DNA of 64,000 bases. Origin: Sulfuritalea sp. (GTDB taxonomy: Bacteria > Pseudomonadota > Gammaproteobacteria > Burkholderiales > Rhodocyclaceae). Under the pieces are notes generated by a model. That model was not told where the DNA came from. It saw only the letters and a program-made list of their open reading frames with translations, and made no database searches. Both the position numbers and the translations under genes were made by a program. The stretch is from positions 3,319 to 67,318 of the forward strand of contig JBIKLV010000010.1 of the NCBI GenBank assembly GCA_044359585.1, given 5' to 3'. This document shows, piece after piece, positions 56,909 to 58,030 of the stretch; position 1 is the stretch's first letter, and the number at the start of each line of letters is the position of its first letter.

Positions 56909-57607
56909 TCAAGTCAAGGCATCGAGATCGCCGTGTCGGCGGAATGCCGCCAGGTCGACCAGGATCAGCTGGCCCTCGTGCTCCTGGATCAAGCCCTGCG
57001 CCGTCAGGTCGCGCATCACGCGGCTCACCATCTCGCGCGACGCGCCGATCATCTTGGCAATGTCCTGTTTGGTCATCTTGTGCGTCACGACCTTGCGTCC
57101 GTCGATCGTCTCCGCCGATTCGAGCAGCAGGCGCGCCACGCGTCCATAGACGTCGAGCAGGGCGAGGCTCTCGATGTTGCGGTCGGCCAGGCGCAGGCGC
57201 TTGGTCAGGCTGCGCATGATGAACAGCGAAACATCGGGGTTGTCGACCAGGCAATGCTTGAAATCCTCCTTGCCCATGACCACCACATCGCTCGACTCGA
57301 CCGCCAGCACGGTAGCCGATCGGGGATGGTCGTCGAGCACGCCCATCTCGCCGAACAGTTCGCCGGGGCCAAGCATCGAGAGGATCACCTCGCGCCCCTC
57401 CTCGTCGCTTACCTGGACCTTCAACGCCCCGGACAAAACAAAATAGATGTTGTCGGTATGGTCTCCGGCGTGCAGTACCACGGTGTGGCGGGGAATGTGA
57501 CGCAGCATGGCGACACGGGTAAGCGGCCTGAGGCACTCGTCGTCGAGCATCTCGAAGATCGGCAACGCCCTAAGGACCGTCAAGGAAACGCCGGGATTTG
57601 GCGACAT
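56909..57607 (-). CDS. Crp/Fnr-family regulator with cNMP-binding motif
   Basis: FGEM..PRSATV pocket and SREMVSR recognition helix; start ATG 57607. Confidence 0.92.
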
Positions 57608-57733: not shown

Positions 57734-57818
57734 TGGTGCCGGGGGGGGAAGTCGAATCCCCATGCCTTGCGGCGGCGGTGTTTGAGACCGCTACGTCTAC
57801 CGATTCCGTCACCCCGGC
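57734..57818 (-). tRNA. tRNA-Leu(CAA), 85 nt, with non-canonical positions
   Basis: GCCGGGG/CCCCGGC acceptor stem plus ACCA, D arm, anticodon loop CT-CAA-AC, GCC-GCAA-GGC variable arm, TTCGA loop. Confidence 0.9.
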
Positions 57819-58030
57819 CCGGGATGTCGCCCCCTGAAACTCCAGGTTGCGGGAGGCGCGCATTATCCGACAATCCCGCCTGTCCCACAATGTCCCCCTG
57901 CCGTGTCCCCGCGCCGTGTCGCCGGCGCCGATTTTTTTTTGCGCGGCGCAGCGTCGCCATTCGACAACACGCGAACGAGCGCAGCGTCTGCGGCATCGCG
58001 TACATATAACGAAGCGCCTATAATCCACCG

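What the first reader, a model, noticed from the sequence alone, without database searches (positions are those of the whole stretch)
57734..57818. tRNA-Leu(CAA) with A53-U61 in place of the near-invariant G53-C61, and C38
Seen: T arm GGGGA-TTCGACT-TCCCC gives A53-U61; anticodon arm GCGGT-CTCAAAC-ACCGC gives U31-A39 and C38. The changes in both stems are compensated, which argues against simple decay. Established: G53-C61 is almost universal in bacteria, and MiaA needs A36-A37-A38, so i6A37 may be lost. Inference: altered UUG decoding, or a role away from the ribosome such as L/F-transferase donor.
Basis: partly seen in the sequence, partly recalled or inferred. Interest (0 to 1): 0.55.

Follow-up and report, generated by a model that had tools for sequence, protein, structure and literature searches.

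The report
Lineage-wide variant leucine tRNA (CAA)
This is the one working leucine tRNA for UUG codons in Sulfuritalea; its odd base pairs are real and fixed across the genus, they arose in steps, and they probably cost it some usual chemical modifications, though nothing points to a special role.

Summary
Window 57734-57818 (-) is a tRNA-Leu(CAA) with A53-U61, U31-A39 and C38.

It is not a sequencing error. The 85-nt gene is 99-100% identical in more than 40 independent Sulfuritalea assemblies, while its flanks have diverged. It is the only CAA isoacceptor. It sits at the ancestral tRNA-queA-tgt locus, and UUG use is normal at 11.4% of Leu codons.

Relatives show a stepwise history:
- Most Rhodocyclaceae have the canonical form.
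- Two sister genera have A10-U25, U31-A39 and C38 but keep G53-C61.
- Sulfuritalea and one further genus add A53-U61.

Both features are rare:
- Non-A38 was found in 0 of 400 other Pseudomonadota.
- A53-U61 Leu(CAA) was found in about 70 of 185,579 species, in five lineages.
- Each feature also occurs without the other.

MiaA, MiaB, a TrmL-like gene and TruA are present. Published E. coli work shows that the A38C mutant of tRNA-Leu(CAA) loses i6A37 and Cm34. This tRNA therefore probably escapes that modification circuit. That is an inference and was not measured here.

I found no support for a non-ribosomal role. The scan has flagged A53-U61 in other tRNAs of other genomes, but not in this gene. 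The finding is a modest curiosity.

The parts
57734..57818 (-). tRNA-Leu(CAA) gene, 85 nt, type II with a 13-nt variable arm, A73, and CCA encoded
   Evidence: ARAGORN. RF00005 scores 50.0 bits, E 1.5e-10. The predicted fold is a cloverleaf.
57749..57757 (-). T loop UUCGACU closed by A53 (57757) and U61 (57749), replacing G53-C61
   Evidence: Read. This is the only true A-U at 53-61 in the genome. Close relatives have GGGGG/CCCCC T stems.
57779..57787 (-). Anticodon loop C32-U33-C34-A35-A36-A37-C38, closed by U31 (57787) and A39 (57779). C38 (57780) breaks the A36-A37-A38 motif.
   Evidence: Read. All nine other A36 tRNAs of the genome have AAA at 36-38. All 93 sampled Pseudomonadota Leu(CAA) genes have A31, A38 and U39.
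57793..57809 (-). D arm with A10 (57809) paired to U25 (57793), replacing G10-C25. The D loop GAAUCGGUAGA is unchanged.
   Evidence: Read. Comparison with canonical relatives.
57853..57875 (-). Upstream block conserved among the aligned relatives: TTGTCGGAT(0-2 nt)AAT followed by G+C-rich bases, 44-57 nt before the mature 5' end. It is a candidate promoter -10 region by inference only.
   Evidence: These are the only conserved columns outside the gene in a 27-genome alignment. The sigma-70 consensus scan did not call a promoter here.

Best explanation
This is the ordinary, single-copy, functional UUG-decoding tRNA-Leu(CAA) of the genus Sulfuritalea (Rhodocyclaceae, Betaproteobacteria). It is the ortholog of the canonical gene that sits next to queA-tgt throughout the family. 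It carries four derived changes that preserve Watson-Crick pairing or lie in a loop, and they became fixed in two steps. First, in the common ancestor of Sulfuritalea and at least two sister genera, G10-C25 became A10-U25, A31-U39 became U31-A39, and A38 became C. Later, in Sulfuritalea and one further genus, G53-C61 became A53-U61. The gene has been held under strict purifying selection since then. The following consequences are inferred from published E. coli and structural work and were not measured here. C38 removes the A36-A37-A38 determinant of MiaA, so (ms2)i6A37 is probably absent. Cm34 depends on i6A37 through TrmL, so it is probably absent too. A39 and C38 leave no uridine for TruA. 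U61 cannot donate the N4 hydrogen bond to phosphate 60 that explains conservation of C61. The tRNA still folds as a cloverleaf and keeps all other conserved tRNA-Leu features, so it is charged and used on the ribosome as usual.
For: Gene and structure. It is the only CAA isoacceptor in this 99.98%-complete genome. No canonical second copy was found in five other Sulfuritalea genomes, one of them closed. The gene is 100% identical in 21 same-genus species and 99% in 3, and 46 of the 80 loci returned by the GTDB-wide scan are this type. The flanks are only 20-55% identical. RpoB ranks the intermediate genera g73 and g53 as nearest kin. A tree that holds g1, g73 and g53 together has a log-likelihood 0.68 higher than the free tree, with p-AU 0.50. 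The tRNA-queA-tgt synteny is conserved. UUG makes up 11.4% of Leu codons, or 11.6 per 1000 codons, against 14.0% in a canonical relative. MiaA, MiaB, a TrmL-like gene, TruA and TruB are present. The other nine A36 tRNAs keep AAA. Literature: the E. coli tRNA-Leu(CAA) A38C mutant loses i6A37 and is not methylated by TrmL (PMC4615657). The AAA motif is necessary, and A38G abolishes isopentenylation of a human mitochondrial tRNA (PMC5699536). N4 of C61 bonds to phosphate 60 (PMC7912444).
Against: There are no expression, charging or modification data for any Sulfuritalea tRNA. MiaA of this clade could tolerate C38, or another enzyme could modify A37. The sigma-70 consensus scan found no promoter. 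On the free RpoB tree two genera with the canonical tRNA (g96, g101) fall inside the clade with weak support (80 and 92), so a single origin is allowed but not proven. tRNA-Leu(UAA) is present and could in principle also read UUG, so essentiality is not shown.
Confidence: 0.8

Rival explanations
1. The tRNA is modified normally. MiaA of this clade, or another enzyme, still modifies A37 despite C38, so the variant is functionally silent drift.
For: MiaA, MiaB and a TrmL-like gene are intact. UUG usage is ordinary. The AAA rule comes from E. coli, yeast and human enzymes, not from this lineage.
Against: The exact A38C change in E. coli tRNA-Leu(CAA) abolishes i6A37. A36 and A38 are said to act through interactions within the tRNA rather than through protein contacts, which makes relaxed enzyme specificity less likely. 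All nine other A36 tRNAs of the genome keep AAA.
Confidence: 0.2
2. The variant 3' part, at least the T arm, was brought in by an integrative element. The element's attachment-site copy of the tRNA 3' half replaced the native one, instead of point mutations accumulating in place.
For: In one Sulfuritalea species (G007) a 54-nt copy of the tRNA from C32 to the 3' end lies in front of the normal crp-queA flank, preceded by A+T-rich DNA, while the full gene is on another contig. This is the classic signature of an island integrated at this tRNA. Between the intermediate genera and Sulfuritalea, six changes cluster in the 3' part of the variable arm (two bases) and the T arm (53, 57, 59, 61), and none lie elsewhere. 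A second betaproteobacterial clade carries the identical 17-nt T arm.
Against: No displaced canonical 3' remnant was found in the own genome. No viral contig carries the sequence. A10-U25 and U31 lie in the 5' part and cannot be explained this way. The other clade has a different acceptor 3' strand.
Confidence: 0.12
3. It is a specialised tRNA, either a donor for L/F-transferase or another non-ribosomal process, or a regulatory low-efficiency UUG decoder.
For: Only the unusual sequence itself. The predicted loss of i6A37 could lower decoding efficiency.
Against: It is the sole CAA isoacceptor. UUG is the third most used Leu codon, with about 10,600 occurrences in 2,755 sampled genes, so it is not a rare regulatory codon. 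The gene is at the ancestral locus, and its neighbours kup, crp-like, queA and tgt have no link to such a role. The two features occur separately in other lineages.
Confidence: 0.04
4. It is a decaying, redundant gene or a sequencing or assembly error.
For: tRNA-Leu(UAA) could cover UUG. Rfam at default speed filters does not report the gene.
Against: The gene is identical in more than 40 independent assemblies while the flanks diverge. Every changed pair remains Watson-Crick. It scores 50 bits with RF00005 once the filters are lax.
Confidence: 0.02

Closest known systems
E. coli tRNA-Leu5 (CAA), gene leuX
   Same: Same anticodon, type II architecture, 3-bp D stem, D loop with ...AAUCGGUAGA, A73 and encoded CCA, and the same UUG-decoding role. 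leuX is also a known integration site for genomic islands (own knowledge), and an att-like 54-nt repeat is seen here in one Sulfuritalea species.
   Different: E. coli has G10-C25, A31-U39, U32, A38 and G53-C61, and carries ms2i6A37 and Cm34. This tRNA has A10-U25, U31-A39, C32, C38 and A53-U61.
Engineered E. coli tRNA-Leu(CAA) A38C mutant (Zhou et al. 2015, PMC4615657)
   Same: The same single change in the same isoacceptor. It lost i6A37 and could not be methylated by TrmL.
   Different: That is a laboratory mutant in an otherwise wild-type body. Here C38 is natural, fixed in at least four genera, and accompanied by U31-A39 and C32.
tRNA-Leu(CAA) of a second betaproteobacterial clade (records titled Casimicrobiaceae and 'uncultured beta proteobacterium'; e.g. 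L062, L066, L069)
   Same: Identical T arm GGGGA-UUCGACU-UCCCC with A53-U61, and next to queA-tgt in L062 and L069.
   Different: It keeps the canonical G10-C25, A31-U39 and A38, so it retains the MiaA motif. It has a 15-nt variable arm and a different acceptor pair at 7-66.
tRNA-Leu(CAA) of sister genera g53 and g73 (L032-L034)
   Same: A10-U25, U31-A39, C32 and C38, and an identical 5' two-thirds of the gene. The kup-tRNA-queA-tgt order is seen in g53 (L033, L034).
   Different: They keep G53-C61, with T loop UUCAAAU.

Membership tests
Bacterial tRNA (Rfam RF00005) | Covariance-model score above the gathering threshold of 29 bits over the full model | tested here: met
   50.0 bits, E 1.5e-10, model positions 1-71. 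The gene was missed at window scale because of speed filters.
Bacterial type II tRNA-Leu (LeuRS substrate) | Long variable arm, A73 discriminator, A14, G18-G19, U54-U55-C56, A58, and a possible A15-U48 pair. Which of these matter for LeuRS is from my own knowledge. | tested here: met
   All are read directly from the sequence. The D loop is identical to that of canonical relatives. Charging by LeuRS itself was not tested.
Bacterial type II tRNA-Leu (LeuRS substrate) | Orthology with the canonical family gene, judged by position and descent | tested here: met
   The tRNA-queA-tgt synteny holds across Rhodocyclaceae. Graded sequence series. RpoB phylogeny is compatible with descent in place.
Canonical T-arm / T-loop motif | G53-C61 closing pair, with N4 of C61 bonded to phosphate 60 | tested here: not met
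   A53-U61. 93 of 93 sampled Pseudomonadota Leu(CAA) genes and all other genuine tRNAs of this genome have G53-C61. Rationale from PMC7912444.
MiaA (i6A37) substrate tRNAs | A36-A37-A38 in a 7-nt anticodon loop on a 5-bp stem | tested here: not met
   The loop reads A36-A37-C38. The motif is strictly required in E. coli (PMC4615657; PMC5699536). Actual modification was not measured.
TrmL (Cm34/Um34) substrate tRNAs | Pyrimidine 34, A35, and prior i6A37. The A38C mutant is not a substrate. | tested here: inconclusive
   C34 and A35 are present. The i6A37 prerequisite is probably missing because of C38. The TrmL-like gene scores 160.8 bits in G000, below the 190.6-bit cut-off.

The most novel reading that the evidence does not exclude
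The Sulfuritalea clade has evolved a natural UUG decoder that works without the MiaA-MiaB-TrmL (and TruA) anticodon-arm modifications that every other A36 tRNA of the cell keeps. The accompanying U31-A39 and C32/C38 changes would compensate for the missing i6A37. If so, sequence alone can bypass the i6A37 requirement for U-starting codons. The later A53-U61 T arm may have been imported through an integrative element's att copy.
Probability: 0.25. Interest if true: 0.5.

Novelty: new variant of a known kind. Interest (0 to 1): 0.3.

Why it matters
The finding gives a natural, evolutionarily stable counter-example to three near-invariant features of bacterial tRNA-Leu(CAA): G53-C61, G10-C25, and A31-U39 with A38. 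Living intermediates show the order of the changes. One tRNA appears to have left the MiaA to TrmL modification circuit while the enzymes and all other substrates stayed. This makes a clean test system for what i6A37 and Cm34 contribute to UUG decoding, and for how much the C61-phosphate 60 contact matters. Sulfuritalea hydrogenivorans is cultured, to my knowledge. There is also a practical point: a standard Rfam scan with default filters does not report this gene. Otherwise it is an ordinary housekeeping tRNA.

Tried and rejected
- **Rfam non-detection as a sign of a pseudo-tRNA.** Rejected: RF00005 gives 50 bits when 97 nt are searched, so the earlier misses are filter losses.
- **A link between A53-U61 and a pyrimidine at position 59.** All five A53-U61 lineages have C59 or U59. 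Rejected as a specific link, because C59 is common in canonical Leu(CAA) genes and in genus g101.
- **UUG avoidance.** Not seen: 11.4% of Leu codons here against 14.0% in a canonical relative of similar G+C. The intermediate genome G076 could not be compared. Its lower G+C (54.6%) defeated my GC3-based gene picking, which kept only 4 genes.
- **Loss of MiaA or TrmL in the clade.** Rejected: MiaA and a TrmL-like gene (below the family cut-off) are present in genomes of all three tRNA types.
- **A second canonical CAA gene.** Not found.
- **A phage-borne copy of the 3' half.** None in viral contigs.
- **Remnant att copies in the own genome.** None.
- **Earlier scan findings by sequence.** None.
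- **Literature search for A53-U61.** Only one paper, which describes an engineered yeast mutant.
- **TrmA.** The equivalog model gives only a 65-bit partial hit in G000, so I make no claim about m5U54.

Full report
**What is there**

ARAGORN finds exactly one tRNA in the window: tRNA-Leu(CAA) at 57734-57818 on the minus strand. Read directly, its parts are:
- Acceptor stem GCCGGGG/CCCCGGC, then U8 and G9.
- A 3-bp D stem ACG/CGU, so 10-25 is A-U.
- D loop GAAUCGGUAGA, then A26.
- Anticodon stem GCGGU/ACCGC, so 31-39 is U-A.
- Anticodon loop C32-U33-C34-A35-A36-A37-C38.
- A 13-nt variable arm: a GCC/GGC stem with a GCAA loop.
- T stem GGGGA/UCCCC, so 53-61 is A-U.
- T loop UUCGACU, then A73 and an encoded CCA.

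The predicted fold is a cloverleaf.

**A note on Rfam**

At window scale the Rfam scan reports no tRNA. On 351 nt, and in a four-locus batch, only a sub-threshold tRNA-Sec match appears. When just 97 nt are searched, RF00005 scores 50.0 bits with E 1.5e-10. The misses are losses in Infernal's speed filters, not evidence of a bad tRNA. For comparison:
- A canonical relative scores 59.9 bits.
- A C38-only relative scores 55.7 bits.
- An A53-U61-only gene scores 54.0 bits.

**Not an error and not decay**

The assembly is 4.39 Mb, 64.3% G+C and 99.98% complete. It has one Leu(CAA) gene beside Leu(UAA), Leu(CAG), Leu(UAG) and Leu(GAG). Every other genuine tRNA has G53-C61, and all nine other A36 tRNAs have A36-A37-A38.

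The 85-nt gene is 100% identical in 21 of 24 other species genomes of the same genus. It is 99% identical in the remaining 3, which have one A-to-G change in the variable arm. Record titles of identical loci name the genus as Sulfuritalea.

In a 27-genome alignment the gene is 99-100% identical, while the flanking 100-nt blocks average 20-55% identity. One short conserved block lies 44-57 nt upstream: TTGTCGGAT..AAT followed by G+C-rich bases. This could be a -10 region, but the consensus scan did not call a promoter there. This pattern indicates strong purifying selection.

Searching five Sulfuritalea genomes, one of them closed, with a canonical Leu(CAA) gene finds only the derived gene and other isoacceptors.

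**Stepwise history**

Across 150 Rhodocyclaceae genomes the parsed genes fall into three classes:
- Most genera have G10-C25, A31-U39, Y32, A38, G53-C61 and T loop UUCGAGU.
- Genera g53 and g73 have A10-U25, U31-A39, C32 and C38, but keep G53-C61 with T loop UUCAAAU.
- Sulfuritalea (g1) and g64 add A53-U61 with T loop UUCGACU.

By RpoB, g73 (93% identity) and g53 (90%) are the closest genera to Sulfuritalea. They sit in a clade with 99% support, together with two canonical-type genera, g96 and g101. Constraining g1, g73 and g53 to a single clade gives a log-likelihood 0.68 higher than the free search, with p-AU 0.50. A single origin of the anticodon-arm and D-arm state is therefore compatible with the data, though one gene cannot prove it.

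The gene lies beside queA-tgt in most of the family and in the other A53-U61 clade. In Sulfuritalea a crp-like regulator gene (56909-57604, minus strand) has been inserted between the tRNA and queA. kup lies divergently upstream. The gene is therefore the ortholog evolving in place.

**How rare**

A pattern scan of one genome for each of 185,579 species looked for Leu(CAA) genes with A53 and U61. It returned 88 stretches, of which 80 were shown. ARAGORN parsing divides the 80 as follows:
- 46 are Sulfuritalea-type.
- 21 belong to a second betaproteobacterial clade, with records titled Casimicrobiaceae and 'uncultured beta proteobacterium'. These have the identical T arm but a canonical D arm and anticodon arm.
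- 3 are singletons: a Saccharibacteria, a Bacilli and a Colwellbacteria MAG.
- 10 are non-tRNA chance matches.

In an even sample of Pseudomonadota, 92 of 100 genomes have a pattern-fitting Leu(CAA) with A38. All 93 sequences also show A31, U39, G53 and C61. None of 400 other genomes has a non-A38 version.

Both features are therefore rare. Each also exists alone in a stable lineage, so they are not one coupled design. The scan's earlier notes list A53-U61 in other tRNA species of other genomes (unchecked). That fits sporadic recurrence of this pair.

**Consequences (inferred)**

- MiaA (273.6 bits), MiaB (589.5 bits), TruA and TruB are present. A TrmL-like gene scores 160.8 bits, below the 190.6-bit equivalog cut-off.
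- MiaA and the TrmL-like gene are also present in genomes with the intermediate and canonical tRNA types. The enzymes were therefore not lost, and only this substrate changed.
- In E. coli the A36-A37-A38 motif is strictly required by MiaA. The A38C mutant of tRNA-Leu(CAA) itself lost i6A37 and could not be 2'-O-methylated by TrmL, which needs i6A37 (PMC4615657).
- The AAA motif is described as necessary, and A38G abolishes isopentenylation of a human mitochondrial tRNA (PMC5699536).
- With C38 and A39 there is also no uridine at 38 or 39 for TruA. This point rests on my own knowledge of TruA specificity.
- For the T arm, conservation of G53-C61 is attributed to an H-bond from N4 of C61 to the 5'-phosphate of nucleotide 60 (PMC7912444). 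U61 cannot donate this bond.
- In a yeast suppressor-tRNA screen, pair-preserving swaps were usually tolerated. G53-C61 and G10-C25 were among the exceptions (PMC4117946). For G53-C61 the authors tie this to the eukaryotic B-box promoter.
- None of these consequences was measured in this lineage.

**No sign of a special role**

In 2,755 GC3-selected ORFs, UUG makes up 11.4% of Leu codons, or 11.6 per 1000 codons. UUA is 0.33 per 1000. A canonical-type relative of similar G+C uses UUG for 14.0% of Leu codons. The tRNA therefore carries a normal, substantial decoding load. The neighbouring genes (kup, crp-like, queA, tgt) give no hint of a non-ribosomal function.

**Origin of the T arm**

One Sulfuritalea species (G007) has a 54-nt copy of the tRNA from C32 to the 3' end. 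The copy is preceded by A+T-rich DNA and followed by the normal crp-queA flank. The full gene lies on another contig. This is the signature of an island integrated at this tRNA.

All six differences between the intermediate genera and Sulfuritalea lie in the 3' part of the variable arm and in the T arm. Replacement of the 3' part by an element's att copy is therefore a possible origin. I found no displaced canonical remnant and no viral copy. I rate this origin at about 0.12.

**Verdict**

This is a real, lineage-wide and selectively maintained variant of an ordinary tRNA. It probably lacks the usual anticodon-arm modifications. It is an interesting test case for tRNA specialists, but not a new kind of element.

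Noticed in passing
window 57734-57818; Rfam cmscan with default or window-scale filters does not report this tRNA at all, although RF00005 scores it 50 bits once only 97 nt are searched. Genome annotations that rely on Infernal speed filters could miss this gene in Sulfuritalea.
   Followed up: yes
L181 558-612 (G007:C151) and L023 1501-1585 (G007:C105): A 54-nt direct copy of the tRNA from C32 to the CCA end lies in front of the normal crp-queA flank, preceded by A+T-rich DNA, in one Sulfuritalea species. This is att-like evidence for an island integrated at tRNA-Leu(CAA). No integrase was identified in the short contig ends.
   Followed up: partly
L062, L066, L069, L070 and about 17 further loci: A second betaproteobacterial clade, with records titled Casimicrobiaceae or 'uncultured beta proteobacterium', has tRNA-Leu(CAA) with the identical A53-U61 T arm GGGGA-UUCGACU-UCCCC but a canonical anticodon arm. 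This is either a parallel origin or a transfer of the T arm.
   Followed up: partly
L036 1501-1585 and 2146-2230 (G119): A related genus has two canonical Leu(CAA) genes 560 nt apart. The second has U7 opposite C66, a mismatch in the acceptor stem, so it may be a decaying duplicate.
   Followed up: no
G076:C2:155065-155526 against 157791-157875: In the intermediate genus g53 the TrmL-like methyltransferase gene lies only about 2.3 kb from the C38-type tRNA-Leu(CAA). If the E. coli rule holds, TrmL could no longer modify that tRNA.
   Followed up: no
G000 whole genome: The TrmA equivalog model (TIGR02143) gives only a 65-bit partial hit, probably a paralogous RNA methyltransferase, so it is unclear whether m5U54 is made.
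   Followed up: no
window 56909-57604 (-): A Crp/Fnr-type regulator gene (cNMP_binding plus HTH_Crp_2) lies between the tRNA and queA in the window and in G007 (L181). The tRNA-queA spacing in g53 and most of the family leaves no room for such a gene. The ORF list extends it to 57763, overlapping the tRNA. The likely start is the ATG at 57604, which has a GGAGG motif upstream.
   Followed up: partly
window 57911-57937 (+): A G+C-rich hairpin followed by a run of T lies between the tRNA's upstream region and kup, on the + strand. It may be a terminator or a kup leader element.
   Followed up: no
G000 C98:11884-11969 and C119:4714-4791: Two ARAGORN calls, 'tRNA-Ala(cgc)' and 'tRNA-Gly(gcc)', lack the conserved D-loop and T-loop sequences and look spurious.
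   Followed up: no
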